Below are positions 45,825 through 64,000 of a stretch of 64,000 bases of DNA, one piece after another. How positions within the stretch are numbered: the first letter of the stretch is position 1; each line of letters starts with the position of its first letter. The position numbers and the translations under genes were made by a program. This DNA comes from Ostreococcus lucimarinus. Its lineage: Eukaryota. The notes beneath the pieces were generated by a model, which was given only the letters and a program-made list of their open reading frames with translations, was not told the DNA's origin and searched no databases. Where the stretch lies: NCBI GenBank assembly GCA_000092065.1, contig CP000582.1, one strand, 5' to 3'.

Positions 45825-46189
45825 CGGCCCGACGCCGCCAACCTCGACTCGTCTTTACCGCACGCCTCAAGATTCAATCGACGCATCTCTATCGCACGCC
45901 TCAAGATTCAATCGATCGTTCACCACTTTTCAACGCCTCCAATCGCTCTTTATTCCTCTTCGCCAGTCTTCGCAGCGCCGTCTCGCGTTCGCGTTCGCTC
46001 AGCGCGGTCCAGTTGCTGATTCTACTCATCGTCCCATCCACGCCGACGACGATCGGTCCTAAACCATCGAGCGCGACGCGCGCGCCCGTTTGCACGTCCA
46101 GCTTCGTCGCATCGGCGTCGTTCGCGCTCGGAGCCGCGAGCGCCGGTGGCGCGTCGTCGGCGCCAGCCATCGTCAGAGCGCGTCGCGCA

Positions 46190-48940: not shown

Positions 48941-49027
48941 CGATTAGATTAGTTTTAGAATAGCGCAGATTTTAATGTAGAACTTAGTAGTAGTTTGGTT
49001 TATTCGAGGACAACGTGCTGCTACGAA

Positions 49028-50557
49028 TTAAACTTCGAGCATCATTCTACGCGGGTCTTCAACAGACTCCTTAATCGACTTCAAAAATGTCACGGCTTCG
49101 CGACCGTCGACGAGGCGATGATCGTACGTCAACGCCACGTTCATCATCGGGCGCGCGACGATGGCGCGGTCGGCACCGACGCACACCGGACGCCAGACGA
49201 TTGAATGCATGCCCAAAATGGCGCTTTGCGGCGGGTTGATGATGGGAGTGCCCGTCAACGATCCAAACACGCCGCCGTTTGAAATCGTAAAAGTACCGCC
49301 CGCCATTTCGTCGATGGACAGCGTTCCATCGCGAGCCTTCTTACCGTACGACGCGATGGAGCTTTCCACGTCGGCGAAATTCATGCCTTCGCAGCTTCTC
49401 AACACCGGTACCACCAAACCCTTGGGCGCGCTCACCGCGACGGATATGTCAACGTAGTTTCTATACACGATTTCGTCGCCGTCGATGATGGCGTTCACCG
49501 AGGGCTCTTCCTGAAGCGCCTTCGCCGCCGCCTTGACAAAGGTACTCATGAAACCTAGCTTGACGCCGTGTTTTTCTAAGAATGCATCCTTGTACTCCGC
49601 GCGCATTTGCATCACGTTCGTCATGTCGATTTCGTTGAACGTGGTGAGCATCGCGTACGTGTTTTGCGAGCTCTTCAACCGCTCCGCGACGCGCAAGCGC
49701 AAGCGCGACATGGGCACGCGCGTCTCGGCGCGAGCGCCCGACGTGACTTTCGGCGCCGCCGGCGCGGGCGATGGCGCAGCGGTCGCTTTCGGCGCTTCCT
49801 TGGCCGGCGTCGCCGCGGCCATCGCCGCGGCCGCTGGCGCGGCCGAAGCTTGTTTCTCCGGCCCCGCCCCCGGAGCGAGCGTCGCCACCTTTTGACCGAC
49901 GGAGACGGTGTCGCCCTCCTTCGCGAGCACGTCCGTCACCGTCCCGCTCGTCGACGCGCGAACGTCTATGGTGACTTTATCCGTTTCAATTTGCGCGATC
50001 ACTTCGTCCATCGCCACCTTTTGACCCGGTTTCACGAGCAAAGCCGCGACGCTCCCCTCCGTGATGGAGTCGCCCATCGAAGGCACCTCAACGCTCACCG
50101 GCGCGCCGCTCGCCGCCTCCGCCTTGGGCGCCGCCGCGCCGCCCTTCCCCCCCTTTTTCCCGCCGACGCCCGGCGCGAACGCCATCACCGCTTGCCCCAC
50201 GTTCACCGTATCCCCCACCTTCGCGTCCACGCGCGTCACCGTCCCCCCGCTCGGCGCCCGCACGTCGATCGTCACCTTGTCCGTCTCGATTTGCGCCACC
50301 GTCTCATCCGTCGCCACCTCGTCCCCGACCGCCTTCGTCACGCTCGCCACCGCGCCCTCCGAGATCGAATCCCCCATCGACGGCACCGCGATCGTCTCCT
50401 CTCGCGTCGCCGTCCCGCCCTTGTGCCTTCGAATCATCGTCATCGCGTCGAATCCTCCGTCGCCGATCATCGCGCGCGCGCGCGCCCTCGTCGTCGCGTT
50501 CGCCGTCTCCGTCTCGTTCGCGCCGTCGCGCGTCGTTCCCGTCGTCGCGCGTCCCAT
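49028..50557 (-). CDS. Dihydrolipoyllysine-residue succinyltransferase (2-oxoglutarate dehydrogenase E2) with two lipoyl domains
   Basis: Two [11 protein letters not shown] lipoyl-lysine motifs are followed by a catalytic domain ending [32 protein letters not shown], which is SucB-like. The ATG is real and there is an N-terminal presequence. Confidence 0.85.
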
Positions 50558-51053
50558 CGTTCGCGTCGCGTAGTGCGAGCGCTGGATACACTGGCGTCAT
50601 TCGCGCGTCGTCGATTCGTCAGTCCTCGTCGCGTCGTCGTCCGCTCGTTCGCCGAATCGCGTCGCGCGCGATCGCATCGCATTTAATCCAATCCGAATTC
50701 GAATCGAATCGCGCGCTCGAATCGCGTCGCGCGCGACGTCGCGCGTCGTCGCGCGTCGATCGTTCGCGCCCTCGCGTCGCGTCGCGCGCGCACCGTTCGA
50801 CGCGCGATCGCGTCGCGCGCGATCGCGCCGAGTCGTCGTCGCATCGCGTCGCGCTTTGGCAACGGTCGAGTCGCGGACCGACGGACGGCCGGGGACGGTC
50901 CGTGTGTCGCCTTCGCGGCGCCGCGTTCGGCGACGGCGCGTCGGCAAAACGCGCGGGACTCGACGACGACACAGGGCGTCGACTCGAGTCGCACCGCAAA
51001 GGCGCGCAGTGGTGCGACTCGTAACGCGACGGCGCCGCGAAGGCGCGAGAGAG

Positions 51054-53447
51054 ATGCGCGACGCCCGCGCGGAGGCACCGCGTCGTGGGAAAGATTTGAA
51101 ATTCGAATCGGCGTCGCGTCGAACGAGGGCGAGGGCGTCGCGCGAAGCGTTCTCGCCCGGGTCGAGCGCGTGCGCGTCCGAGCGTGGAAGTTTCGCGACG
51201 ACGACGACGGTCGAGAGCGCGTCGCGACGCGATGCGCGGGAATACACGCCGCCGCCGTTGACGGCGGAGGAGATCGCAGAGATGAACGAAGCCGTATCTG
51301 AGCTCGTCGTCGAGAGCTCCATCCCGTTCGCGTGGACGAGCTCGCCGGCGTTCTTCCGGTTCATGCACGCGCTTAGGCCTGAACTCTTCAGCGCCGCGGA
51401 GCGCGCGCGCATCGAAAGCGGCGCGGAGCTCGTCGACCAGCCCGAGAACCTTCGATGTCGCCGTTGGCACTCGACAGCCGGCGTCGACGGGTTGTACGAG
51501 AAACGTATGAAACGCGCCCTCCGTGCGCTTGAAGACTGGGAGGAGTTGGCGTTATCGGCGGATGGTTGGCAATCTGAAGATGGCGTGAAAGTACTAAACT
51601 TGTCCATAACGGTGAGAGAAACTGGTCGCGAGTACTACTGGAAGAGCGTCGAAATAGAAACGGAGTCAGAAAGCGCAGTGTTCATGCAACAGACCGCCGC
51701 GCAAGTGATGAAAGACCTCCCACTGAAGAAGTTCAAATGCATCATTGGGGACAACACCTCGCATGTCGTCAGCTTCTTGGAAGCTATCGCGGCTACTCCA
51801 GAGACATCTCACATTACTCCGATTGGTTGCTATGCACATCGTTTCAACTTGCTGGCTGGAGACGTCCACGAGACGTTCAAATTCTTATTTCTGGATCTAG
51901 AGCGGGCCATCAACAAGCTCCGTGTTCAGTCTCGAATGCGCGCGCTTTTCGACGCGGCGCGTAAAGAGAAGAATAGTAAGAAACAACTTGAGACGTACTG
52001 CCCAACGCGATGGGCGTCCGCGCATGCATGTCTACACAGCTACGTACTGAATATCGACGTGTTCAGATTTTTGGACGAAGACGACGGTGTGATCGCAAAA
52101 AATTTCCGTAAAATGTGTGAAAAAGACTCGGAATCAATCTTTAAAGTATTCTTTGACCGGGATTCGCAGATGGCAGTCCGTAGGTTAGAGCCCTTGTTCC
52201 GAGGTTTGGCGGCGGCAAACAAGTTTATGGAAGCTACTGGCGCTCATCTTGCGGAAGTCTTCCCGCTGTGCTGGGCACTAGAAAAAGACTTGAGACAGTG
52301 GCTCGCGAACGTGAAAACGAGTGCTCAACAGTCATGGATTGAACGTGCGACGCGCCAGTCATGGATTGAACGTGCGACGCGCCAGCCGACACGCGATGGA
52401 CTCACGACGCCTGAGCAATTATCAGACGTACTTCACCGAGTTTACAAAGTGCGATTCGAAGGACTGGAGGCACAGCCAGGTAACCCAAGCACGAAGCGCA
52501 CGCCGTTGCGAGACGAACCCCTCGTACATCTTGCATCATATTTGAGTTACATGATGCATGCGAGAATGCGTATCAAACATCAGTTCGTCGTGCCGGAAGT
52601 ATATGAAGCGAAAAAAGGTATCGGAAAGATTCATTTCCACTTGGAGGAAAAGAAAGCAGACGTGGAAGCAGCCAAAACGGCATTAGAAAAACTGAACGCG
52701 GTCACCTGTCCGAAAGCGGCACGACCCTACCGCGACGACTATCGCGTTCGCTTCATCGAGAATGACGCGTACATCCAAGCTTGCGCCGACAAAACGTTTG
52801 TGGACGTTACACTGGAGCAGCTTGAGTACATCAGGGCACACAACTGGTGGCGCAACTTCTTGGAGCCAGAATGCGTGCAAACCTGGCCTGCATGGAAAGA
52901 TCTAATTCCTTTCGCACGTCGTATAAACGCGATTGTTCCACATAGTGCGTCTGTTGAACGCATGAACTCGTCTCAGAAACTTGTGCACAACAAGAGGCTC
53001 AGCTTGAGCCACGCGAATGTCCAGAAGTTGTCTTTCATTTACTTCAATGCTAGGCATGAGCGCCGGTTATTCGCGAGTCCCTTTCATCGTTTGGTATCAG
53101 AGACATACGACGCAGCAGAAAGTCAAGTAGCCGCGAGTCCTGTGGTAGTTGTGGACAGCGACAGTGATGATGGAGTTGGTGAAGATGAAATCCTCTCGTC
53201 AGATGACGACGACTTAGACGAGTACTTAAAAGAGGTAGACGAGCTCGTCATGTCGCCACACGCAAACGTTTCGAATGGAACGGAAATGACAAGTTTAGGC
53301 AACCTCGATGAAACCGTGCCGGTACAGGATGATGTCTCGCATCCCACTCGGAACAAGGCAAAGGAAACTTTTGCACAGAAGACAGCTCGCAAGGCATTAG
53401 AGCGTCAAGAGAAGAAGAGACGTAGTAAGAGTAGAAGATTGCAATAG
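51054..53447 (+). mobile_element. hAT-family transposase-like gene (hAT dimerization domain at C-terminus)
   Basis: The C-terminal ..WWRNFLEPECVQTWPAWKDLIPFARRINAIVPHSASVERMNSSQKLVHNKRLSL.. is the hAT dimerization signature. The central region is transposase-like. The coding region is ~48% GC, but the 5' ~200 bp are GC-rich. It contains an internal 27-nt in-frame tandem duplication. Confidence 0.65.
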
Positions 53448-53510
53448 ATAGACTAGCGCGCGACGTGAGTCGGTTTTCGCGCGGTTCTCGTCGATTCGCC
53501 ACCGTCGTGC

Positions 53511-53580
53511 CAGCTCGTACCAGCTCGTATCAGTTCGTATCATCTCGTATCAGCTGCGATGACGACGACGACGACGACGA
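53511..53580. repeat. Five tandem 10-mers (cagctcgtaY-like) followed by (GAC)7, 64 bp downstream of the hAT ORF
   Basis: cagctcgtac cagctcgtat cagttcgtat catctcgtat cagctgcgat, then gacgacgacgacgacgacgac. They might be subterminal repeats of the element. Confidence 0.5.
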
Positions 53581-53639
53581 ATGCGTACGGGTCGCGCGCG
53601 CGCGAAAGCTGCTCGATCGATCGCTCGATTATTACGATA

Positions 53640-54701
53640 TCACTCGTCGGGATGCGGGACGATGAAAGCGGCGGCGTCGGTGCGAACGTCGGCGTCGCGC
53701 GAACCGCGGCGACGGGACTCGGCGGCGGCGCGCGAGGGCGACGGCGAGGGCGAAGACGCGGGCGAAGCGACGAGCTCGCCGACGATGACGTCTCGCGGAG
53801 AATCGCCGAGGGCGTCGGGGTGAGGGTCGGTGGAGGCGGTGGTGACGGCGCGGGAGGGTCGCTTGCGACGGGCGTCGCGGCGCGCGCGTCTGAGAGCCGT
53901 CGCGAGGGACTCGCCGAGCGGCGCGCGCGAGTTTTCGGCGTCGGCGACGACGACGGGTAATCTCGGTAAACCTCGCGCCTCGATCGCGCTCACGATGACG
54001 GCGACTTCGCCGAGATCTAAACCGCTGAAAATTACCGCGCGCTGACTGCCGTACTCACCGCCGCGAGCGAGAGCCGCGTCGCGCGGCGATTCCCAGTCCG
54101 GTTCTCGCGTTCGAGCCACCTCTTCTAAAGTCATCCACGCGTGCTCGCTCCGCGCGGGGATCACGGGTACGTCGTAACCACCGAGTTCGTCCACCAGCAC
54201 GCGCACTCGAGGCCACTCTTCGGCGCGGAAACCGACGAGGATGACCGCCGGCGGTCCGCTCGGCGTCGACGCGGCCGCGTCGGCGACCGTCTTCGCCGTC
54301 GCGCGCGCGGTGATGCCCAATATCTCAGCCTCTCTCTCCTCGCTTAAATCACCGTGCGACGTTTCAGGTTCGTACTCCCACTCGTCGTCTTTTTTTGCGA
54401 CCGACGCCGCGTTCGTCGTCGCCGCGTCCCGCTCGGGCGCCGCGGCGTCTTCGACCCCTTGCGCGTCTCGCGCCTCACCCGCGCGCCGTTCGTCCTCCAT
54501 CGCCGCGTCCATCATCTTTTGCAACCACGGGTCATCGCCGCCGTCACCGTCGCGCGTCTCGCTCGCACCGCGCCGCGTCCTTTCGCGTCGTCGTCGTCCA
54601 CTCGCGACGCTGACGCGGCGGCGGCGAAAAGCAACCGCCGAAGACGCCGACGTCGACGTCGTCGCGCGACAGCGCGCCGCCGCGCCCGTCGCGGGCGCCA
54701 T
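53640..54701 (-). CDS. Hypothetical organelle-targeted protein
   Basis: A real ATG; MAPATGAAARCRATTSTSASS.. looks like a transit peptide. A conserved-looking core (VILVGFRAEEWPRVRVLVDELGGYDVPVIP..AVIFSGLDLGEVAVIVSAIEARGLP) has no family assignment. Confidence 0.35.
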   Translation of the reverse strand: MAPATGAAARCRATTSTSASSAVAFRRRRVSVASGRRRRERTRRGASETRDGDGGDDPWLQKMMDAAMEDERRAGEARDAQGVEDAAAPERDAATTNAASVAKKDDEWEYEPETSHGDLSEEREAEILGITARATAKTVADAAASTPSGPPAVILVGFRAEEWPRVRVLVDELGGYDVPVIPARSEHAWMTLEEVARTREPDWESPRDAALARGGEYGSQRAVIFSGLDLGEVAVIVSAIEARGLPRLPVVVADAENSRAPLGESLATALRRARRDARRKRPSRAVTTASTDPHPDALGDSPRDVIVGELVASPASSPSPSPSRAAAESRRRGSRDADVRTDAAAFIVPHPDE

Positions 54702-54958
54702 CGGTTTTGTTTCGTTTCGTTCGCTTTCGTTTCGTTTGACTCGGTGATGCGACGCGCGAGGAGTGAAGTGAAGCGAAGGGCGGTTGAATTCTGGTTTGTT
54801 TTGGTTCGTCGCGCCGCGCCGCGACGCTTGGGCGCCGTTGGTAATGTATTCGTTCGTAAAATACGCACCGTAGGCGTCGTCTAGGTGTGGATTCGTCGGT
54901 GATGTCGAGCGCGTGCCGCCGTCATCGCGCTAAAGCGTTTATTCAATCGCCGGTTCGC

Positions 54959-56038
54959 TCACGCGCGCCCGCCGTCGCGCATCGTGCCCACGCACACGCG
55001 AAGGGCAAACTCTAACATGCGGATCGGGATGAGAAAGACGCTGATCGGAAACGGAAGCTTGAAGCCGTACATGATTTGCGACCAAAATCCCGTCATCGCG
55101 AGGACGAAGATGGCGAAATTGAAAACCGTTCCTTTTTCATCGATGACGTTTGGTCCGAGGTACTTGTGGCGGACGAGATACGTCAACAGCCCACGAGCAA
55201 AGAGTTGTGCGCCACGCGTTGCAGAGTGATACGCGGTGATGGCCTGCTGAACTAACCACGCCGCGATGACACCTATGACTTTACAGGCATATCTCACGCC
55301 AGGTCCAACCCATTTCTGATACTCCTTGGGCGTGCTCATCATCAACACGGGGGTGAGATTTTCATCGACGATGTTGTGCACGATGTCACCAACAGCGACA
55401 CCAAGAGAGACACACGCCGCGAAATGCACGCGTAATGTAGCCACGACGGCCACGAACCCCATGTAGATCGCACCCAGAGCATCTCCAACCTGTTCAGGAT
55501 CCATACTCTTGGCGACGACGCCAATCTTTCGAACCACCAACGCCTTCTTCGTAATCTCTTGCGTATCCGGAATGCCGTTGTGGTCTTCATCTAGCTCATC
55601 GTCCTTCAAGCTCGCGCGCTGCGCAGCTTCGATATTGCGCCATATTATCACCAAAGCGTCTCGAGTGTTCGCGTAGCCGGTGATTCTGTACGCCTCCACC
55701 GCCGCCGTGATCGTGGCAAAGTATCCGCCAAAGAAGCACAGGATGAATCCAACGATCGCCGGTCCAAACTCTTGCGGGTGGTACGGTTGCAGCGCGAGCC
55801 AGGTTTTCCGACAAAACTCAAACGTGGCCACGGCGTAGGGTTCAGATTGCGCCGCCAAACGGCTCGCGGCGACGAGGGCGGGGCCGGCTTTATCTAATAC
55901 CGTTGGGAGCGTCGTCAAGCCCGCGGTGACGACGGACGGCGACGGCGCCGACTGGGCGACGACGTGTTTCACCGGCGGCGCCGAAGGCGGTGATTTCGTC
56001 GCCTTGTTGGATTTCAATTTACGCGAAAACACGGACAT
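54959..56038 (-). CDS. Hypothetical multi-pass membrane protein
   Basis: A real ATG. An S/P-rich presequence is followed by 6-8 hydrophobic helices (IVGFILCFFGGYFATITAAV.., FNFAIFVLAMTGFWSQIMYGF). No assignable domain. Confidence 0.35.
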   Translation of the reverse strand: MSVFSRKLKSNKATKSPPSAPPVKHVVAQSAPSPSVVTAGLTTLPTVLDKAGPALVAASRLAAQSEPYAVATFEFCRKTWLALQPYHPQEFGPAIVGFILCFFGGYFATITAAVEAYRITGYANTRDALVIIWRNIEAAQRASLKDDELDEDHNGIPDTQEITKKALVVRKIGVVAKSMDPEQVGDALGAIYMGFVAVVATLRVHFAACVSLGVAVGDIVHNIVDENLTPVLMMSTPKEYQKWVGPGVRYACKVIGVIAAWLVQQAITAYHSATRGAQLFARGLLTYLVRHKYLGPNVIDEKGTVFNFAIFVLAMTGFWSQIMYGFKLPFPISVFLIPIRMLEFALRVCVGTMRDGGRA

Positions 56039-56206
56039 CGGTCGCGCGCTCGAGGGCGCAGGCGAGAAGTGCGGAGTGCCTTTCGAGGCGCGCGACGGAT
56101 GTTGCGACTAGAATTACAATACTACAACATGCGCACATGCTTTCGCTACGCGACACGTGCACGGCGGGCTAAAGGACAGTGACTCGAGTCAGGCGCTTCT
56201 TTCGCT

Positions 56207-57142
56207 TCATAGTTTCTCTCCGATCAACTTTTTAAGCAAAACGCGTCTTGCTCCGAGTACCCCGCCGAGTCCGTACCACCACGGATCTTCGCCACAGGCG
56301 ACGTATCCCCGGCGCTCATACATCTCGCGTGCGCGCTGATTATCGACATCAACATGAAGCCAAAGATGGGTGTATCCCCAAAGCCGCGACGCACGTTCGC
56401 ACTTCACCAACATCGAGCTCGCGACGCCTCGTCCGCGCGCGTCGGCTTTGACGGCGACGTTACTGACGTACGGAACACGTGGTTTTGTCGTCGGAAATGG
56501 CTCCGGAAATAAAGCTTCTGGTGAACACACGCGAAGGCTTGCGCTTCCTACCCAACGAGACTCATCATCGGCGACGGCTTCGTCCAGGCGCGAGATCAGC
56601 GTCAAGCACTGCGCCTTTTGTCTCGCGCGAAGCGCTCGCGCGTCGTTTTTCGCGTATTCATCGCCGAGTTTCTTCATTTCACGAATTTCACGACTCGCCT
56701 TCTTCCGTTCTTCAATCTGGTGCGTCGTCATGTGCTTCAACTCCTTCGCGATCGAGCGCGCGTACGCGTCGTCCAACATTTTCTTCACCGCCTCCGCCGC
56801 GTCGTCCAGCGCGTCGCCGCGACGCTCGGACTTTTCCTCGACTCGCGTTTCGTACGCGAACGCGTCCCCGCAGACTTTCGCCGCCGCCGCCGCGTGCGCC
56901 GCCGTCGTCGCCACGCGCACGTGCACGCGCGCGCCGCGCGCCGCGCTACCGCCCGCGTCGTCGGCGGCGCGCGTGGACGTCGGCGAAGCGTCGTCGACGT
57001 CCGGCGCGGACCGCGTCAGCACGCGCGCGCGCGTCACCGAGGACGACGCGCGGGGAGTCGAGCGGCGCGACGGCAACGACGACGACGCGCGCGCGGTGGG
57101 ACAGGACGCACGCGCGCGCAGAGCGATTACAGCGGGCGTCAT
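56207..57142 (-). CDS. GNAT-family N-acetyltransferase with transit-like presequence
   Basis: Acetyl-CoA motif VAVKADARGRGVASSML and ..THLWLHVDVDNQRAREMYERRGYV are present. Confidence 0.7.
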   Translation of the reverse strand: MTPAVIALRARASCPTARASSSLPSRRSTPRASSSVTRARVLTRSAPDVDDASPTSTRAADDAGGSAARGARVHVRVATTAAHAAAAAKVCGDAFAYETRVEEKSERRGDALDDAAEAVKKMLDDAYARSIAKELKHMTTHQIEERKKASREIREMKKLGDEYAKNDARALRARQKAQCLTLISRLDEAVADDESRWVGSASLRVCSPEALFPEPFPTTKPRVPYVSNVAVKADARGRGVASSMLVKCERASRLWGYTHLWLHVDVDNQRAREMYERRGYVACGEDPWWYGLGGVLGARRVLLKKLIGEKL

Positions 57143-57357
57143 AGCTTCTCGCAGGCCGCGGACGAGTGGCGCTGGAATGATCGCATCAACCCCGCTTGAG
57201 GCAAACAAACAAGGACTGAAGGAGACAAGACTTCGCTCAGCTCAGGAGGACGTTGTAAATAAGCTCTGTGCTTGCTCTTTTTCTAATGAACGGTGAATTC
57301 GACGATGATTTCAAAGACGGTTTAACTTGAATATTTCAAGGGTGTCGTACGTGATAC

Positions 57358-59324
57358 TTAAAATCGCTCACCGAATCGAACATATGTGGAGGCCGTGCCG
57401 CTGTTGTTATCAATGCACCACTCCGCTCGCACCGGCCCCAGTTTGATACCAACACCGTGAGTTGATCCTTTACCAGCTCTTCGATAAAACTCCGTTGGGT
57501 TACCTGATAACGCTGAACTTGACGATAAGTCGGAGCATTGCTCCCAAAATAAGAAGCCGTGTGTTTTCAATACAGGAACAGGGAGGCGTATCTCAACTGC
57601 AGTCTCGAGAAGAGAGCGTGCGGCGCCAAGTTCACCCACGGTGTATCCTCTACAAGAGTGCGGGCCACCCAAAGCAAAAGCATCGTAAGCTGCGCAATTC
57701 CCAAGAATGTGACCTGCTCGAGTGTGCAAGACAACAACAGGAGGAGGAAGAGAATTTTTCTTGTTTTCTGGCAGCAACTGAACAAATCGTGTTAATTCGA
57801 CTTTGGAACGGTTGAATATCGGTCGTTTTGGCCAAAACGGAATCGACTGATCGATCTGAAATATATCTCGGGCGCCGACTTGCGTACCGTTTACAAACGT
57901 CGTCGTGTCTCTGGTGACATTACCCTGAAGGAACATGACTCGATCTGTACCTGTGTCAGATAACGTAGTTCGAGGACCATCAAGCGACAGAGAACCATTT
58001 GGGAGTTGTTTTGCGCCAGACGCACATACCGCTCCCGAATCATCACGCGTTGTCACTTCTTCTAATACCATACCAAGTGAGCACTTCGACTGCTTTGTAA
58101 AGTTCTGGCAAACCGTCGCCTTGATACCTGCTCTATCGACCCAAATGCCGGGAACATCTTGAATCAGAGGCCCTCCGGTGAAGACCGGGGACAGTTTCCG
58201 CGAATTGAAAGCCGCAGCTTTGAAAGATGTCTTATCGCTATCAGCGTCGCCTTTGCAGTACGGGTGGTTGTACTCCAGTTTGAACCCCAGATCTTCCTGT
58301 GGTTCAAGGAAGTTGGCTGTTGAAATCGACCCAAAAAGTTGACGTCCCCAGCTATCCAGATTCCTGTGTTCAAAGAACACAGAACCACCTGGACGCGCCG
58401 AAACAAGATCTGGACGACCATTTTCACCTGGTGCGATACTCCATTCAAGTTCAGTCTCCGCTGTCTTCGTTGGTCTTTCGCGAAGTAGTATATCAACTTC
58501 AATTTTGGATGGATCGCGCTCATCAGGTCTCGGTACAACTTGGACGTTGTCAAACAACTGCAGTAGGAAAATATCACGCAATGCCGTCTTCGCGTCTTCG
58601 ACGTTATAGAGTTTTCCAACTTTAAAATTATGTTCCCTCTGAATCACACGCGGATGAGTCACTCCCTTGTTGCCAGGCATTGGCTGGAGATTCTCGTCTA
58701 CAAAGACCGCTTGGACTCGTGTGATTTCTCCCTCGACGACGTGTGCTATGACCTCACCATTTTCCATTCCATCGAAGTGTGATATCGTACCGAATGTGAG
58801 GCCCTTGCTGGTGTAGTAACCCTCTACGATATTTTTTGCTGTCGCCAACACGCGGACTGTACAGTTTTGACTTTTCCGAGCAGCTTTCAAAACCTCTTGT
58901 TCGACATCTTTTGGAAGTGCAGTCGACCCAGCAACTCTAAACGATTGTACCTGCGGCCAGATCTTTTCTCGAAAAACAAACTCAACTGCGTAACCATCCT
59001 GTTTGGGCGTGACATTGGCGTCAACGTTTGCGAAGAGACCTGTGTTAAGAAGCTGTTCAAGATCATCAGAGAGATCTTTCTTCGAAAGTTCCGCGCCCTT
59101 CCGCGCATTGAGACCCTGAAATAATTCGGACTGTATTGAAAGGAGTTAGTAATAAGTTAAATATTCATGCCGCCTTCCTTACCTTCGTCGGAATACCTGG
59201 ACCGGTCGGAAGATTCGTCGCGAGGACTGATTCACAAATGAAATTATCCCTGTTCTTGGGCTTGTTTGCGGCACGGGCAGTATTTGTGGAGGATTCGTCG
59301 TCGCTGTCGTCGTCGTCATCATCT

Positions 59325-59362
<38 letters not shown>

Positions 59363-59812
59363 GTATTCAACATCGTCGTCGTCAACACTGAGCTCGCCTT
59401 CTCCACCGGAAGCTCGAGCGTCAGCGATAGGAATCGCGGTCAGAAGGTAAATGTTGCTACCACTGTGGCCACTCGAATCGTCAGAGTCCCAACCGTCACC
59501 ACTACCGTCGTTGCCATTCCCGATGCCGGAGCCATGATTTCCACTACCTCCACTTCCAACCTCTGGTTCCTCAGTCACAGAGCTGCAAGCTGTTCCTTGT
59601 TTATGTTTGCTCCTGAGGGTTACACGAAACAAAGAGCGCGACGGTGTGTTGCGCGTGGGCGAAAAAGACCAGTTGGTGCCGGAAGCTCGACGGCTAAATT
59701 TTCCACCCGATGATGCTACGCTCGACGACGCTTTATGTTTATTGTATCGGTGACTGGGCGCGGCGGACTTGATGAAAGCGGCGCGGGAAGAGACCTCCGC
59801 AAGGACGGACAT
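57358..59812 (-). CDS. TOC75: Toc75/OEP80-family (Omp85) chloroplast outer-envelope beta-barrel protein, two exons
   Basis: Exon 2 (57358..59130) encodes POTRA-like repeats and a barrel ending ..GVGIKLGPVRAEWCIDNNSGTASTYVRFGERF, with the GYTVGELG motif. Exon 1 (59183..59812) encodes a transit-like, Gly/Ser-rich stretch and a poly-Asp run. A 52-nt phase-0 intron joins ..PTK | SELFQGLNARKGAEL.. Confidence 0.75.
59131..59182 (-). other. Short spliceosomal intron (52 nt) with GTAAGG donor, TACTAAC branch motif and TACAG acceptor
   Basis: The frame is continuous only if this segment is removed; its stop codon otherwise splits the Toc75 ORF. Confidence 0.7.
59296..59390. repeat. (GTC/GAC)n trinucleotide array encoding poly-Asp in Toc75 exon 1
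   Basis: About 18 consecutive gtc units lie on the + strand, giving DDDDDDDDDDDEDDDDDD in the protein. Confidence 0.8.
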
Positions 59813-60250
59813 GTTCTATCGAAGGCCGCTGTTCTCTATCAAGCGCCAGGGTGTACTTGAATTTTTCGAGAGACTCAAAATGAACCTACTATAAGTGGCG
59901 GCAGCGGACTCAGCCGGTTGAGCACGGCGCGCGAATGACGCCGTGCGCCCTCAAGGGCGAAAGGCTTGAAGCGGAAAGGGTGTCATAATCGACATCGCGC
60001 TTTTCGTATTTAATACGCTTTGAAGACCATACTGGTACCCAAAATAAAAAACTATCATGTAGGTCTCCCCCGAAGGAATAATTTATATCAGACAGATAGA
60101 CTTTAGGCGAATGAAGACAAATTATATGCATTCTTAATCAGTTCATGTTTCGAGTTTACACATAAACTGAGGCGCGCAGCGGCACGGAGCCGTCGACAAC
60201 CGTGCGGCCGCCACTCGCGCGAGGATATCCCATGCACCACAGCTTTCTGA
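59813..60250. promoter_or_regulatory. AT-rich bidirectional promoter region (Toc75 / LTV1)
   Basis: It is ~45% GC with TATAAG and TATAAA-like elements, in contrast to the GC-rich divergent spacers elsewhere in the window. Confidence 0.4.
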
Positions 60251-61624
60251 ATGGGAGGTCGCAAGAAGACGTCGTTTGTGGATAAAAAGAGCGCGGTGAC
60301 GTACGCGTTGCTCCCTAACCACGACCGACAAGCGCACAGCCTCGGCCTTCCTAACACATGGGTCCGGACGGACAATAACCAGGGTGCGGACCCCTTCGAT
60401 GACGGCGATCACGTTGGGCGGGAACTCGAACGTGAGCTCCGAGAAAGCCATTCACAACACGTGTCCGCGGGCGATCTTTCAAATGAAAAGGACACAAACA
60501 ATAAATTGACGGCATCAGAGAAGTTGGAACTAGGACTTCCAGACGACGGCTATGATTACACTAAACACTTAAGAGAGTGCGACCCAGATAAAGTACGTAC
60601 CGTAGAAAGTGATTATGCAAATCCACGCAGTGAGATATTTACGAAAAGCATTGACCACGCAAGAACCGAGTATGCGGGCGGGGCAATGAACCAAGGCGAG
60701 TGTGATTTTCACACCTTGCACGAACAAGATAACATTGCCGACGTGTTACAACTTCTTGACGACATAAGCCAAGGCGGATCAATGGAAACCTGCGCTTACG
60801 AGGAGTTACAAGACGATATAATTTTCTTGGCTAGTCAGCGTAAAAGTGAAGAGCGGTGCTCATCGCCTTTCTTGCCCCGAAAAGTAGAGCCGTTGAGTCC
60901 GCAAACCCATCGTGCAGCCACGAAAGTATTAGTAAGAAGTTCAAGTGATGCGGTAGGGAACGAACGTTCAGACGATAGCCATTTTCTGCGTATGATCCAT
61001 AACTACGATGACGACGATCTTGGCGCTACGCCGATGAAAGATGAGAGCAATATTAGATCTGAGAACACAAAATGGCAGACTCTTGAGCAGTTGAACTTCA
61101 ACGATGGAAATTTACAAAAGCATAACGTGGATGCACGCACAGTGAAAAGTTATGCGCTCAATCATAGTGAGGAACAAACTCCACGAAATGCCTACTTAGA
61201 AGAAAGCATTCTGGACAAAAGAACTCAAGCGACCCACATGTATGACTGCGAAAGCATTTTGAGTTTGCACAGTAACTCAAACCATCATCCAAAACTTCTT
61301 GAAGGGAGACTTCTGAGTGAAGAACGTAAATTGAAAACGCCAGATCAACAGAGTGCAAGCATTCCGGGCATTCATACTTGTTTTCCTCTCGGTATGAAAG
61401 CATCATCAGAAGCTGAATTCGATTGGCGCAGCTGCACAGCTCGTAAAGGAGAAAGTGCTCAACAGAAAAAGGAGCGCAAAAATGCCGTCAAAATGGGCCG
61501 TCGACAAGCTCGAAGTACGAAAAAGGGGTTGAAAGAAAGTTTTCAATATTTCAAGCAAGCAGGAGCTGGGGGCGGTAGCTCTGGGGATGTAAGAGCAAAG
61601 ATATCTGTGACAAAAATGCAGTAG
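60251..61624 (+). CDS. LTV1: LTV1 pre-40S ribosome biogenesis factor
   Basis: The N-terminus MGGRKKTSFVDKKSAVTYALL matches LTV1 (MGKKKxFIDKKxAxTF). The basic C-terminus (KKERKNAVKMGRRQARSTKKGLKESFQ) is also LTV1-like. Confidence 0.7.
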   Translation: MGGRKKTSFVDKKSAVTYALLPNHDRQAHSLGLPNTWVRTDNNQGADPFDDGDHVGRELERELRESHSQHVSAGDLSNEKDTNNKLTASEKLELGLPDDGYDYTKHLRECDPDKVRTVESDYANPRSEIFTKSIDHARTEYAGGAMNQGECDFHTLHEQDNIADVLQLLDDISQGGSMETCAYEELQDDIIFLASQRKSEERCSSPFLPRKVEPLSPQTHRAATKVLVRSSSDAVGNERSDDSHFLRMIHNYDDDDLGATPMKDESNIRSENTKWQTLEQLNFNDGNLQKHNVDARTVKSYALNHSEEQTPRNAYLEESILDKRTQATHMYDCESILSLHSNSNHHPKLLEGRLLSEERKLKTPDQQSASIPGIHTCFPLGMKASSEAEFDWRSCTARKGESAQQKKERKNAVKMGRRQARSTKKGLKESFQYFKQAGAGGGSSGDVRAKISVTKMQ

Positions 61625-61675
61625 CATATCCATGTGGTTGCTCAGTTCTGAAGCATTTCTAGCGTAGGCGCTGTA

Positions 61676-64000
61676 TTATTTAGGTGTCATTTTCGACAAC
61701 AAATTGATCGCATCTGATAGCGCAGATTCATCAATTTTTTCTTCTATTCGCAGATCCAAGTACTTGTGTTCGATACCGAAGCATAAAGACAGCTCGTTGG
61801 AAATCCCTTCAAGCTCACTGATGACACAAATAGGAATATCAGACATGAAGTCAGGATTGACACGGAATAATGGATCACGCGATGAGTAGAGGAGCTGAGT
61901 GCAGCATAGAATACTCAATGTCTCGTTCGGGCATTCATTGACACTATTTGGATTGCTCTCTATAAATACTCTGCGCAAACTTGCGTTGACAGATGCGGAT
62001 TCGTTCTTGACTTCAGGATAAGAGGATGCAAGCAATGCCGCATAACTGAGAATTTTTCCTACATCCGAATTATTCTGTTGCGAGACGAGGACTTCATACT
62101 CTTTTGTGAATAAAGTAACCAAGCCAAGTATTTTTGGGTTCGACTGTATTGCATCACTGGCTTGCTCGCGCCAAGATGGGTCTGCGCATACATGTTGCTT
62201 TGTTTCACACAGTCTCACGAATTCTCGAGCGATATACACTCCTAAACCACGCGTGACTAGTATCACTTCATCGCCGTTGTTAATGTCTAAATAAGCGCGT
62301 ATGCGTTGCACATACATTGCGGCAAGCTCTGAGACGCTTGCTGCGGTGGAGGATTGCCAGTCCGTAGTAACGACGAAAGCTGCTGATTTTATCGACGAAG
62401 CTAGGCTGGAATAAAAACTAGTTCCACAGTCTACGTCATTGAGAAAGACGACTATGGGAGTTGTTGTATTACCATTCAATCGCGTAATAAAGCTTCGACT
62501 CACAGGTGAATTTCTATGCTTCCATTGCGGGAGTCGGTATCTCAAAGTAGCTGCAATGCGCTGAGATTGCTCAGATAGGTTACCTGGAGAAGCTGCATCT
62601 TTCCAGGCATTGGCCAGAGTCGGATTTATGAAACAATGCGACAGAATATTAGGGTCTGCGGCACCTTTTCCTCCCGGTTCGATGGGCTCAAACATTTTCG
62701 CATTATTATAAGAATAAGGATTTGTCATGTTCGTGCAAGAGGGCAATTTTAGAAAGTCGCATATTTTGTCGATATGCGACGTAGGATCAGAAACTAGGTC
62801 TTCGTAACAAATTTCCAATTGTCGAGTACTTTCTACATTGCGCAGAAAATCAATGATGTTGGAATTTCCTCGTGCCCATAATTTATCCATATGGCTCCAG
62901 ATCTGCTCGATGGTGGATGCAGATAGAAGCTCCAAACGTTTGCGGCCATTTAATTGTAGCAACTTCTCATTTTCAAGGATATCATGCCTTGATTTGAAAG
63001 TTTCTTTTGACATGGAGTGGATCGTTGCGTACGGATGCCTGTGTATGAATATATAGTACACATCTTCAAATATTGATTCGGCTCGTTCCAAAGTGTCCAA
63101 AGACCACGAATAAGGTGGCGACTTGTCCACTAGAATCCGATCGCCACACCAATTTTGAAGGACTTCATAGACATTCTTTGTTGACATGGAATGCATGTCG
63201 TGCATTATTTTATCAGCTTCATCGGCGAAACAGCCGCGAAGTTCTACAATAGCTTTACGCAAACCTTCAAACGCCCACGAGTGTCCACGAGATATTGACT
63301 CAAACCTTTGGTACATCGTCTCAAAATTTAGCAAGTAAAGTTCTTGAGGTGCAAAAATTGATGGATGAGAGTTTAGTATCATCTGCAAAAGAGTTGAACC
63401 AGACCTCGGCGACGACAACACGAATAGTATCTTTCCCTTCACCTTTGGCTCGTGGAGCCGTAATCGGGGCATCCATGAATTCGAATCTGTTAGTGGCGTA
63501 TACTTTTTAACTTGCGACTCTATCCACAAACAAATGCGCTCACCGGCACTTAATCCTACTGAGAATGTTTCGCGTGTGACCACTTTGATTGCGGCGTCAA
63601 CACTCGCTGCGATCCCTTTGATAGTATTCTCTCTGAATTCGCCAGACCCACAGTGGCTGAATCCAATATCTCGCAGTACATTGTGCAAAGGCTCTGACAT
63701 TGACAGTGGATGTCGGCGTCGACATGGCTCGTTTCTGCTAAGTGAGCTGTGTAACTCGTTCCAAATACATTTTTGTAGTTGGAAGGTCAACCGATTTGCG
63801 TCAACATGAGTATTCTGGTTAGCGGCGTTGCATCTGGTAAGTAGAACGTTTTGTCTGTGGCGAGGTTCTTGAAAAGCCCGGCAATCGCGGCGCACATTTG
63901 TGAGCACGTGTGCCATACTACCGCCATAACCAAAAGAGCTCGTGCCGATTATACCTCCGCTAGTGGGCCCTTTTAGCATAGGAAAGTGTGATCGCTTGTC
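61676..64000 (-). CDS. 3' end of a type I polyketide-synthase-like gene: KS C-terminus, a CurM/OLS-type sulfotransferase (ST) and a thioesterase-like alpha/beta hydrolase; truncated at the window edge
   Basis: The reading frame is open to nt 64000. GIIGTSSFGYGGSMAHVL resembles the KS C-terminal motif (SSFGFGGTNAHV). KILFVLSSPRSGSTLLQMILNSHPSIFAPQELYLLNFETM matches the PAPS-binding start of CurM-type activating sulfotransferases. The C-terminal ~250 aa (PIVVFLNDVDCGT..EVILVTRGLGVYIAREF..) is collinear with offloading thioesterases. Confidence 0.65.
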   Translation of the reverse strand, partial: DKRSHFPMLKGPTSGGIIGTSSFGYGGSMAHVLTNVRRDCRAFQEPRHRQNVLLTRCNAANQNTHVDANRLTFQLQKCIWNELHSSLSRNEPCRRRHPLSMSEPLHNVLRDIGFSHCGSGEFRENTIKGIAASVDAAIKVVTRETFSVGLSAGERICLWIESQVKKYTPLTDSNSWMPRLRLHEPKVKGKILFVLSSPRSGSTLLQMILNSHPSIFAPQELYLLNFETMYQRFESISRGHSWAFEGLRKAIVELRGCFADEADKIMHDMHSMSTKNVYEVLQNWCGDRILVDKSPPYSWSLDTLERAESIFEDVYYIFIHRHPYATIHSMSKETFKSRHDILENEKLLQLNGRKRLELLSASTIEQIWSHMDKLWARGNSNIIDFLRNVESTRQLEICYEDLVSDPTSHIDKICDFLKLPSCTNMTNPYSYNNAKMFEPIEPGGKGAADPNILSHCFINPTLANAWKDAASPGNLSEQSQRIAATLRYRLPQWKHRNSPVSRSFITRLNGNTTTPIVVFLNDVDCGTSFYSSLASSIKSAAFVVTTDWQSSTAASVSELAAMYVQRIRAYLDINNGDEVILVTRGLGVYIAREFVRLCETKQHVCADPSWREQASDAIQSNPKILGLVTLFTKEYEVLVSQQNNSDVGKILSYAALLASSYPEVKNESASVNASLRRVFIESNPNSVNECPNETLSILCCTQLLYSSRDPLFRVNPDFMSDIPICVISELEGISNELSLCFGIEHKYLDLRIEEKIDESALSDAINLLSKMTPK

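What the first reader, a model, noticed from the sequence alone, without database searches (positions are those of the whole stretch)
57209..64000. Compositional discontinuity: the last ~7 kb is a low-GC block with an AT-rich promoter and a different intron type
Up to about 57.2 kb the window is about 65% GC, with GC-rich divergent spacers made of cgcgtcgcg-type repeats. From the GNAT gene's 5' end onward, the coding sequences (Toc75-like, LTV1, PKS-like) are about 45-50% GC, and the divergent spacer at 59813-60250 is AT-rich with TATA-like motifs. The one intron in this block is 52 nt with a GTAAGG donor and a yeast-like TACTAAC branch site. Introns in the GC-rich part are 115-311 nt with GTGAGT, GTGCGT or GTACGA donors and no TACTAAC. 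This combination of lower GC, short introns with distinct signals and nearby transposon content is what characterises the outlier (low-GC) chromosome regions described in Mamiellophyceae (Ostreococcus chromosomes 2 and 19, Micromonas chromosome 1 low-GC region). Those regions are proposed to be mating-type or virus-susceptibility related. The window may therefore span the border of such a domain. The hAT transposase-like gene about 4 kb upstream would fit the reported transposon enrichment of those regions.
Basis: partly seen in the sequence, partly recalled or inferred. Interest (0 to 1): 0.7.

Follow-up and report, generated by a model that had tools for sequence, protein, structure and literature searches.

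The report
Edge of Ostreococcus low-GC mating-type region

Summary
The compositional break is real and sharp. GC falls from 61.3% (1-57,208; not 65%) to 47.1% (57,209-64,000). Coding GC3 falls from 0.61-0.85 to 0.43-0.47. The maximum-likelihood change point is at 57,202.

Three window proteins are residue-for-residue identical to Ostreococcus lucimarinus CCE9901 proteins listed on an 895,087-bp record, which I infer to be chromosome 2, the 'big outlier chromosome'. The block has the published BOC1 hallmarks: housekeeping genes (Toc75, LTV1), a spliced 52-nt intron of 34.6% GC, and a giant type I polyketide synthase.

Low GC continues for at least 16 kb past the window end. All of that stretch lies inside the PKS, which is called at 16,671 aa on a 360-kb metagenome contig.

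Metagenome contigs show two alternative low-GC sequences joined to the same GC-rich flank. The flank is 99.0-99.4% identical between them. Homology stops exactly at the GNAT start codon (57,142). This matches the published picture of non-alignable MT+ and MT- haplotypes, and CCE9901 is the MT- reference.

The hAT, TATA and 'yeast-like TACTAAC' arguments are weak. The feature is already known, so interest is low. The base-pair boundary and the recoverable alternative haplotype are a modest addition.

The parts
57143..64000 (.). Low-GC block: the first 6.9 kb of the BOC1 / candidate MT- region of O. lucimarinus chromosome 2
   Evidence: GC is 47.1% against 61.3% for the rest of the window, and GC3 is 0.43-0.47. 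The block is 99.9-100% identical to metagenome contigs L001-L006 and L029-L034. Low GC continues on L001, L025, L026 and L027.
57140..57142 (-). GNAT start codon, which is the exact point where the two population haplotypes stop being homologous
   Evidence: In a base-by-base comparison with L014-L020, the sequence is identical from the ATG into the coding sequence and unrelated immediately upstream.
56207..57142 (-). GNAT acetyltransferase gene, the last gene of the GC-rich recombining flank. Its 5' end reaches 80-82% GC.
   Evidence: Pfam Acetyltransf_1, E = 5e-14. GC3 is 0.71. 100-bp GC bins are.
44963..57142 (.). GC-rich flank shared by both haplotypes
   Evidence: It is 99.0-99.4% identical to L014-L020, which carry the alternative low-GC block, and to L027/L028, which carry the window-type block. 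There are no differences in the first 1 kb next to the border.
57358..59812 (-). Toc75 gene (chloroplast outer-envelope translocon): exon 1 at 59,812-59,183 and exon 2 at 59,130-57,358
   Evidence: Pfam Omp85 and Toc75 POTRA hits. The spliced 800 aa equals P0001. The C-terminal 519 aa equals XP_001416377.1.
59131..59182 (-). BOC1-type intron: 52 nt, 34.6% GC, phase 0, GTAAGG...TACTAAC...CAG
   Evidence: Reading frame plus the identical spliced protein. Its position is conserved in two related loci, where it is about 64 nt (L021) and 53 nt (L012).
59813..60250 (.). Divergent spacer between the Toc75 and LTV1 start codons, the presumed bidirectional promoter
   Evidence: 49.1% GC with a single TTTATA at 60,082. 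No functional evidence.
60251..61624 (+). LTV1-like gene (small-subunit ribosome biogenesis factor), single exon
   Evidence: Identical to XP_001416136.1. Relatives are named 'protein LTV1' or carry PF04180. There was no Pfam hit for the window protein itself.
61676..64000 (-). 3' end of a giant type I polyketide synthase gene, which runs off the window. The C-terminal part holds a KS C-terminal extension, a sulfotransferase domain and about 330 unassigned residues.
   Evidence: Pfam Sulfotransfer_3 (E = 2e-29) and KAsynt_C_assoc. The gene continues as one open frame of 4,135-4,706 aa on L025/L026 with 4 KS, 4 KR and 4 ACP. Its product is called at 16,671 aa on the L027 contig.
50856..53447 (+). 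DUF659 / hAT-like ORF. It lies in the GC-rich flank and is not part of the low-GC region.
   Evidence: DUF659 scores 29.2 bits, below the gathering score of 34.7. GC3 is 0.60. It sits at the same place in the contigs of both haplotypes that reach it.

Best explanation
The window comes from chromosome 2, the 'big outlier chromosome', of Ostreococcus lucimarinus strain CCE9901. Position 57,142/57,143 is one border of its BOC1 low-GC region. The literature treats this region as a candidate mating-type locus several hundred kb long, in which recombination is suppressed.

Proposed mechanism, taken from the cited literature and not shown here:
- The mutation bias in Ostreococcus runs from GC to AT.
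- Recombination-linked GC-biased gene conversion holds the normal genome near 60% GC.
- Where recombination stops, GC and especially GC3 decay, short AT-rich introns persist, and the two mating-type haplotypes diverge until they no longer align.

What is shown here:
- The GC-rich flank is shared at over 99% identity by two kinds of chromosome in natural populations.
- From the GNAT start codon outward, the two kinds carry unrelated low-GC sequence.
- The window type (CCE9901, published as MT-) carries Toc75, LTV1 and a giant PKS.
- The alternative type carries an Ofd1-like 2OG oxygenase, a protein kinase, an RPE65-GST fusion, a cyclin and TIMELESS. It is most likely MT+.

What is inferred:
- That the alternative type is the MT+ allele.
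- That recombination suppression causes the low GC.
- That the 895,087-bp record is chromosome 2.
For: Identity:
- ORF 54,959-56,038 equals XP_001416375.1.
- LTV1 equals XP_001416136.1.
- The Toc75 C-terminal 519 aa equals XP_001416377.1.
- The LTV1 and Toc75 entries are listed with an 895,087-bp longest record.

Composition:
- GC drops by 14.2 points.
- GC3 drops by about 25 points within roughly 100 bp.
- The published criterion for the boundary is a sharp 9-17% drop, and about 20% lower GC3 for core MT genes (PMC8557840).

BOC1 marks:
- A 52-nt intron of 34.6% GC is proven spliced. The class is defined as 40-65 bp AT-rich (PMC3491373) or under 75 nt and under 43% GC (PMC3879977).
- The genes are housekeeping genes.
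- Giant type I PKS genes are described as 'a conserved feature of BOC1 regions' (bioRxiv 10.1101/2025.04.21.649811).

Extent:
- Low GC runs to about 80 kb in window-equivalent coordinates.
- The PKS product is called at 16,671 aa, and the contig continues 341 kb on the low-GC side.

Dimorphism:
- L014-L020 (130-532 kb contigs) match window 44,96x-57,142 at 99.0-99.4%. Beyond that they carry different low-GC DNA with no nucleotide or translated similarity to the window haplotype.
- The window-type junction is crossed by independent contigs L027 and L028.
- This mirrors O. tauri chromosome 2, where the haplotypes are over 99% identical outside the region and unalignable inside it (PMC5498103, PMC8557840).
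- CCE9901 is the published MT- reference, and both types co-occur in Tara samples (PMC7016971).

Diversity:
- Pairwise diversity among the alternative-type contigs is 0.0001 inside the low-GC block and 0.0036 in the flank.
- Window-type contigs show 4-5 mismatches per 7 kb inside the block. By subtraction, about 60 mismatches fall in the 7 kb of flank.
Against: - The NCBI chromosome record could not be fetched, so the border's chromosomal coordinate was not compared with the published BOC1/MT boundary tables.
- Only one border and about 23 kb of the window-type low-GC region were read. Beyond about 61.7 kb all of it is one PKS gene, so 'low GC' beyond the window rests largely on a single gene.
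- Only one intron lies in the low-GC part of the window.
- The assignment of the alternative haplotype to MT+ was not tested against MT+ marker genes (MMETSP0939).
- The metagenome contigs are consensus sequences, so the diversity figures and the linkage between flank and haplotype are soft.
- Toc75 orthologues sit in a normal 64.6% GC region of M. commoda on CP001329.1. Bathycoccus-like contigs carrying them are about 47% GC. Gene membership in the region is therefore not conserved across genera.
Confidence: 0.88

Rival explanations
1. The alternative junction (L014-L020) is not the opposite mating type. It is a structural variant inside one haplotype class, such as an inversion, translocation or large indel with one breakpoint at the GNAT start codon.
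For: Only 8.9 kb of the alternative block was read. No MT marker gene was examined. The O. tauri MT regions are reported to have undergone large translocations (PMC8557840). An RPE65-GST gene occurs near the border in both the alternative block (L014) and a window-like arrangement in a related species (L011).
Against: The two blocks share no detectable nucleotide or translated similarity over 8.9 kb against 14.5 kb. CCE9901 is a published MT- strain, and MT+ is reported to dominate Tara samples at 66-97% (PMC7016971). The alternative type is found in long contigs from Tara station 66, where O. lucimarinus is abundant. The L014 and L011 RPE65-GST proteins are only 52-56% identical, which is compatible with old divergence.
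Confidence: 0.15
2. The low-GC stretch is only a small AT-rich island made of three genes with their own composition, chiefly the PKS, and not the edge of a large domain.
For: Everything read beyond 61.7 kb is one PKS gene. Other genes in the left part also have about 50% total GC.
Against: The '50% GC' genes on the left still have GC3 of 0.60-0.63 against 0.43-0.47 on the right. Spacers and the intron are also low in GC. The alternative haplotype is equally low in GC (0.42-0.53) over 8.9 kb of unrelated genes. Contigs run 341 kb and 495 kb beyond the border. Chromosome 2 of this strain is documented to hold one contiguous low-GC region (PMC7016971).
Confidence: 0.04
3. The junction is an assembly chimera, or the low-GC DNA is foreign (viral or horizontally acquired) or belongs to the small outlier chromosome.
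For: Many metagenome contigs end at 57,016-57,088. A GC near 45-47% resembles that of prasinoviruses (my own knowledge).
Against: L027 and L028 cross the junction by about 7 kb in two independent samples. The contig ends at the border fit an assembly-graph fork between the two haplotypes. Toc75 and LTV1 are core eukaryotic genes with Ostreococcus orthologues (Toc75 is 89% identical to the O. tauri protein), and Toc75 carries a spliceosomal intron. The CCE9901 proteins are listed on an 895-kb record, whereas the small outlier chromosome is 149 kb and low in GC throughout (PMC3491373).
Confidence: 0.02

Closest known systems
[quoted passage not shown] 2012 (PMC3491373) and bioRxiv 10.1101/2025.04.21.649811
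   Same: A sharp GC drop of 14 points next to a normal-GC flank on the same chromosome. Housekeeping genes. A short AT-rich intron. A giant type I PKS. The window proteins are those of the sequenced strain CCE9901.
   Different: Nothing essential differs. Only one border and about 23 kb were inspected. Expression, methylation and 3D insulation could not be examined.
Candidate MT+/MT- mating-type locus of Ostreococcus; Blanc-Mathieu et al. 2017 (PMC5498103), Benites et al. 2021 (PMC8557840), Leconte et al. 2020 (PMC7016971)
   Same: The flank is over 99% identical between the two chromosome types and the sequence inside is non-alignable. Nucleotide diversity is lower inside than outside. CCE9901 is the published MT- type, and a second type is present in Tara metagenomes.
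   Different: Here the boundary is resolved to the base, at the GNAT start codon, from metagenome contigs. As far as I read, the cited papers define boundaries from GC profiles, and for O. lucimarinus MT+ they used transcriptome genes only. Mating itself, the sex-determining RWP-RK gene and trans-specific gene trees were not examined.
Small outlier chromosome (SOC; chromosome 18 in O. lucimarinus, chromosome 19 in O. tauri), linked to virus resistance
   Same: Low GC in a Mamiellales genome.
   Different: The SOC is low in GC along its whole length of about 149 kb. It is rich in species-specific genes and poor in introns (PMC3491373). This locus has a flank of at least 57 kb of normal GC, conserved housekeeping genes, and lies on an 895-kb record.
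Pseudoautosomal boundaries of sex chromosomes and mating-type loci (for example Chlamydomonas MT and brown-algal UV chromosomes)
   Same: An abrupt change from a shared, recombining flank to haplotype-specific non-recombining DNA, with a compositional signature.
   Different: This comparison rests on my own knowledge and on the analogy drawn in the cited preprint. Sex has never been observed directly in Ostreococcus.

Membership tests
Mamiellales BOC1 low-GC region | Sharp GC decrease of about 9-17 points relative to the flanking chromosome (PMC8557840) | tested here: met
   GC goes from 61.3% to 47.1%, with the change point at 57,202. In 100-bp bins GC falls from 0.80 to 0.44 within 200 bp.
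Mamiellales BOC1 low-GC region | Lies on the big outlier chromosome (chromosome 2 in Ostreococcus), as one contiguous region flanked by normal GC | tested here: inconclusive
   The window proteins are identical to CCE9901 proteins listed on an 895,087-bp record. One normal-GC flank of 57 kb was seen. The chromosome name, the coordinates and the second flank were not retrievable.
Mamiellales BOC1 low-GC region | Genes split by small (40-65 bp) AT-rich introns (PMC3491373); BOC1 intron defined as under 75 nt and under 43% GC (PMC3879977) | tested here: met
   The intron is 52 nt and 34.6% GC, and its splicing is confirmed by an identical intron-less protein. The sample is n = 1 in the window. 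The orthologous introns in relatives are about 64 nt (L021) and 53 nt (L012).
Mamiellales BOC1 low-GC region | Conserved housekeeping genes, in contrast to the species-specific genes of the SOC | tested here: met
   The window type carries Toc75 and LTV1. The alternative haplotype carries TIMELESS, a cyclin, a kinase and an Ofd1-like oxygenase.
Mamiellales BOC1 low-GC region | Giant type I PKS gene (bioRxiv 10.1101/2025.04.21.649811) | tested here: met
   There is one open frame of more than 4,700 aa with 4 KS, 4 KR and 4 ACP. The product is called at 16,671 aa.
Mamiellales BOC1 low-GC region | Extent of hundreds of kb | tested here: inconclusive
   GC was verified to about 23 kb from the border. 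Contigs extend 341 kb and 495 kb further, but their sequence was not readable.
Mamiellales BOC1 low-GC region | Higher expression, hypomethylation and TAD-like insulation | not testable with these tools
   This needs RNA-seq, methylation and Hi-C data.
Candidate Ostreococcus mating-type locus (MT+/MT-) | Two haplotypes that are over 99% identical outside the region and non-alignable inside it | tested here: met
   The flank is 99.0-99.4% identical up to 57,142. Beyond it there is no blastn or tblastx similarity. Both junctions are supported by contigs that cross them.
Candidate Ostreococcus mating-type locus (MT+/MT-) | Suppressed recombination inside and free recombination outside | tested here: inconclusive
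   Diversity is 0.0001 inside against 0.0036 outside. Flank SNPs are not structured by haplotype. The contigs are consensus assemblies, however.
Candidate Ostreococcus mating-type locus (MT+/MT-) | Gametologs show trans-specific grouping by mating type; 23 core MT gene families are present | not tested
Candidate Ostreococcus mating-type locus (MT+/MT-) | Sex-determining RWP-RK (mid-like) gene on MT- | not tested
   It was not seen in the window or in the fetched flanks.
Small outlier chromosome (SOC) | Whole small chromosome low in GC, mostly species-specific genes, few introns | tested here: not met
   There are 57 kb of normal-GC flank, the record is 895 kb, and the genes are conserved housekeeping genes.

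The most novel reading that the evidence does not exclude
The limit of the mating-type-specific DNA falls exactly on the start codon of the GNAT acetyltransferase gene. One identical coding sequence is therefore driven by two unrelated promoters and 5' UTRs, one per haplotype. The gene could be expressed in a mating-type-specific way. The 80-82% GC tract just inside the shared side could mark a recombination or gene-conversion hotspot that pins the boundary. In addition, a near-complete O. lucimarinus alternative haplotype, probably MT+, may already exist as a 532-kb public metagenome contig.
Probability: 0.3. Interest if true: 0.5.

Novelty: already known. Interest (0 to 1): 0.27.

Why it matters
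[quoted passage not shown] It is also a hot spot for giant polyketide synthase diversity.

This window adds no new kind of feature. It does show that the boundary can be placed to the base at a start codon. It also shows that both haplotype junctions can be read directly from public metagenome contigs.

This gives a simple junction-spanning read assay for mating-type ratios in the ocean. It also gives a concrete boundary gene, the GNAT, whose two promoters could be compared.

Tried and rejected
- Micromonas origin. The closest named Toc75 hit at first was M. commoda at 72%. I rejected this once exact O. lucimarinus CCE9901 matches appeared.
- Introner elements as the 'other intron type'. The repeat search found only CG-rich low-complexity families and no intron-sized repeat family.
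- De novo intron finding in the GC-rich part. The first scan gave 1,691 candidates and was useless, because GC-rich DNA is open in all frames. A stricter scan left 29 plausible but unverified candidates.
- 'The window haplotype is rare (7 contigs against 893 blocks)'. This was an artefact of exact-sequence look-up. A one-residue LTV1 variant is on 55 contigs and the same Toc75 call is on about 20.
- Toc75 cluster P0004 (85% identical; it contains an MMETSP Ostreococcus protein) as the MT+ gametolog. Its context is also 45% GC, but it could not be tied to the alternative haplotype.
- The homology search with the PKS tail returned no named algal PKS; the best hit was 42% identical.
The NCBI chromosome record was not in the contig index.
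- The supplementary tables of PMC8557840 and the Derelle 2006 paper are not held.

Full report
**Observation**

A 1-kb and 500-bp composition profile shows that the window is not uniform. The first 57.2 kb average 61.3% GC, with bins from 0.47 to 0.79. The last 6.8 kb average 47.1%, the lowest stretch of that length in the window.

Total GC alone is ambiguous, because patches at 7-11 kb and 51.5-53.5 kb are also near 50%. Third-codon-position GC separates the two parts. The ORFs I take as coding left of the border have GC3 of 0.61-0.85. Toc75, the LTV1-like gene and the PKS tail have 0.43-0.47.

A two-segment likelihood fit places the change at 57,202. In 100-bp bins GC falls from 0.80 to 0.44 between 57,000 and 57,299. 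CG-rich low-complexity repeats, abundant on the left, stop at 57,123, apart from a GAC-type run at 59,299-59,368. CpG observed/expected is 1.70 on the left and 1.19 on the right.

**Genes in the block**

- 57,358-59,812 (minus strand) encodes Toc75 (Pfam Omp85 and Toc75 POTRA domains).
- 60,251-61,624 (plus strand) encodes an LTV1-like protein. It has no Pfam hit itself, but relatives are named LTV1 or carry PF04180.
- 61,676-64,000 (minus strand) is the C-terminal end of a polyketide synthase, with a KS C-terminal extension and a sulfotransferase domain.

Toc75 is split by a 52-nt intron (59,131-59,182) with GTAAGG, TACTAAC and CAG, at 34.6% GC. Removing it joins the two ORFs in phase 0. The 800-aa product is 100% identical to a JGI protein carried on a 2,461-nt contig, which cannot contain the intron. 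The splice is therefore supported by environmental transcript-like data.

TACTAAC itself is not significant: two occurrences in the window against 1.34 expected. The orthologous intron, at the same position after ...GPGIPTK, has GACTAAC in another Ostreococcus lineage and TTCTGAC in a Bathycoccus-like contig. Lengths there are about 64 and 53 nt.

The divergent spacer 59,813-60,250 is 49.1% GC with one TTTATA, which is ordinary for this block.

**Does GC recover beyond the window?**

No.
- Metagenome contigs 99.9-100% identical to the block extend it. L001 reaches window-equivalent 71.6 kb at GC 0.40-0.54.
- L025 and L026, found with an exact 46-mer, add about 7 kb more at 0.41-0.54.
- All of this is one uninterrupted reading frame of 4,135 and 4,706 aa on the two loci, with 4 KS, 4 KR, 4 ACP, a DH and no AT hit.
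- On a 360,398-bp JGI contig the same gene is called with a 16,671-aa product, and that contig continues 341 kb on the low-GC side.

**Organism**

The first named relative of Toc75 was Micromonas commoda (72% cluster). Its gene lies in ordinary 64.6% GC DNA on CP001329.1 with other neighbours.

Cluster look-ups then settled the matter.
- The protein of ORF 54,959-56,038 is exactly XP_001416375.1.
- The LTV1-like protein is exactly XP_001416136.1.
- The last 519 residues of Toc75 are exactly XP_001416377.1.

All three are Ostreococcus lucimarinus CCE9901 proteins. The LTV1 and Toc75 entries are listed with an 895,087-bp longest record. The adjacent GenBank numbers ABO94668 and ABO94670 fit the gene order seen here.

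The O. tauri orthologues of Toc75 (89% identical) and LTV1 (about 34%) are both listed on one 1,074,072-bp record. I infer that the 895-kb record is chromosome 2. I could not fetch it to obtain coordinates.

**What the literature says about this place**

- All sequenced Mamiellales have a big outlier chromosome with one contiguous low-GC region (BOC1), flanked by normal GC. It is enriched in housekeeping genes and in small (40-65 bp) AT-rich introns. The small outlier chromosome is low in GC throughout and full of species-specific genes (PMC3491373).
- BOC1 introns are defined as under 75 nt and under 43% GC, and have no discernible branch motif (PMC3879977).
- Giant type I PKS genes are called a conserved feature of BOC1. 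TE enrichment is largely absent from O. lucimarinus BOC1 (bioRxiv 10.1101/2025.04.21.649811).
- In O. tauri the region exists as two haplotypes, MT+ (450 kb) and MT- (650 kb). They are over 99% identical outside and unalignable inside (PMC5498103, PMC8557840).
- The boundaries are defined by a sharp 9-17% GC drop. Core MT genes have about 20% lower GC3.
- CCE9901 is the MT- reference of O. lucimarinus. Both types co-occur in Tara samples, with MT+ at 66-97% (PMC7016971).

The window meets each feature I could test.

**A second haplotype at the same border**

Looking up the exact protein of ORF 54,959-56,038 returned long contigs (130-532 kb; L014-L020). They match window 44,96x-57,142 at 99.0-99.4% and then stop matching.

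A base-by-base comparison shows the sequences identical from the GNAT ATG (57,142, minus strand) into the coding region and unrelated immediately upstream. Beyond the ATG these contigs carry a different low-GC block (0.42-0.53 over 8.9 kb). It encodes an Ofd1-like 2OG oxygenase, a kinase, an RPE65-GST fusion, a cyclin and TIMELESS. It has no blastn or tblastx similarity to the window haplotype.

The window-type junction is not an assembly error. L027 and L028 cross it by about 7 kb. Many shorter contigs of the window type end at 57,016-57,088. That is 55-127 bp into the shared flank, as expected at an assembly-graph fork.

Three of the alternative-type contigs come from Tara station 66 DCM, where O. 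lucimarinus makes up 1.03% of reads and RCC809 0.15%. I matched the table columns to species by their published maxima.

**Diversity**

- Among the seven alternative-type contigs, pairwise diversity is 0.0001 in the low-GC block and 0.0036 in the flank.
- Window-type contigs differ from the window at 4-5 sites in 7 kb inside the block. By subtraction, about 60 sites differ in the 7 kb of flank.
- The window and the alternative type show no difference in the first 1 kb of flank.
- SNPs in the nearest 5.4 kb are not structured by haplotype.

This fits recombination up to the border and none beyond it. The contigs are consensus sequences, so this evidence is soft.

**Interpretation and limits**

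The best-supported reading is that 57,142/57,143 is a border of the BOC1 / candidate MT- region of O. lucimarinus chromosome 2. The alternative block is most likely the MT+ allele.

That last step is inferred. I did not compare it with MT+ marker transcripts, and a rearrangement within one haplotype class is not excluded.

The causal chain is taken from the cited papers and was not tested here. It runs as follows: an AT-biased mutation pressure is offset by recombination-linked GC-biased gene conversion outside the region, while inside it GC decays.

**Points in the finding that do not hold**

- The DUF659/hAT-like ORF (29.2 bits, below the Pfam gathering score) lies in the GC-rich flank. It sits at the same place next to both haplotypes, so it is not evidence of transposon enrichment of the low-GC region.
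- The 'yeast-like' branch site is a single instance.
- The spacer is not unusually AT-rich.
- Introns on the GC-rich side remain unverified.

**Verdict**

The feature is already described for this very strain.

The additions are modest:
- a base-pair boundary at a start codon;
- two unrelated 5' regions for one GNAT coding sequence;
- long public metagenome contigs for both haplotypes.

Noticed in passing
window 61676-64000 and beyond (L001 4589-14493; L025; L026; L027 1-7176): The giant PKS shows 4 KS, 4 KR, 4 ACP and a DH in 4,706 aa, with no acyltransferase-domain hit. Its C-terminus is KS, then sulfotransferase, then about 330 residues with no family match. This is reminiscent of the sulfotransferase-thioesterase off-loading of CurM/Ols-type synthases (my own knowledge). 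L026 carries one more about 1.3-kb module copy than scaffold L001, which has a gap of Ns at that spot.
   Followed up: partly
window about 50,900-51,700: This is a hypervariable GC-rich stretch between the 2-oxoacid dehydrogenase E2 gene and the DUF659 ORF. Pairwise differences among metagenome contigs reach 0.05-0.085, against 0.000-0.007 in most 500-bp bins of the neighbouring flank. It also holds 19 of the 29 differences that separate the window from all seven alternative-type contigs in the shared flank.
   Followed up: partly
window 1-57142 versus 57143-64000: CpG observed/expected is 1.70 in the GC-rich part and 1.19 in the low-GC block. The GC peaks of 70-79% coincide with CGCGCG/GACGAC-type low-complexity runs, which stop at 57,123.
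   Followed up: partly
window 60251-61624: LTV1 evolves very fast compared with its neighbour. Outside its own 90% cluster the nearest relative is 86% identical, and the O. tauri cluster is about 34%. Toc75, 440 bp away, is 89% identical to the O. tauri protein.
   Followed up: partly
window 59299-59368: A poly-Asp tract (GAC/GAT run) lies in the N-terminal part of Toc75. Three metagenome contigs (L003-L005) start at 59,334-59,345, inside this run.
   Followed up: no
L011 (JGI Ga0373644_0000640) and L021-L024: Toc75 also sits in 45-46% GC DNA in two other Ostreococcus lineages. L011 keeps the order RPE65-GST, PKS (much shorter), LTV1-like, Toc75, and then ends 177 bp after the Toc75 stop. L021-L024 have quite different neighbours: aconitase, a DEAD helicase and a WD40 protein on one side, PhyH and RFC1 on the other.
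   Followed up: partly
L014-L020, about 100 bp upstream of the GNAT ATG (locus positions about 8,790-8,850): The alternative haplotype has long T-runs (CTTTTTTTTCTTTTTTTTT...) immediately upstream of the shared GNAT coding sequence. The window haplotype has no such tract.
   Followed up: no
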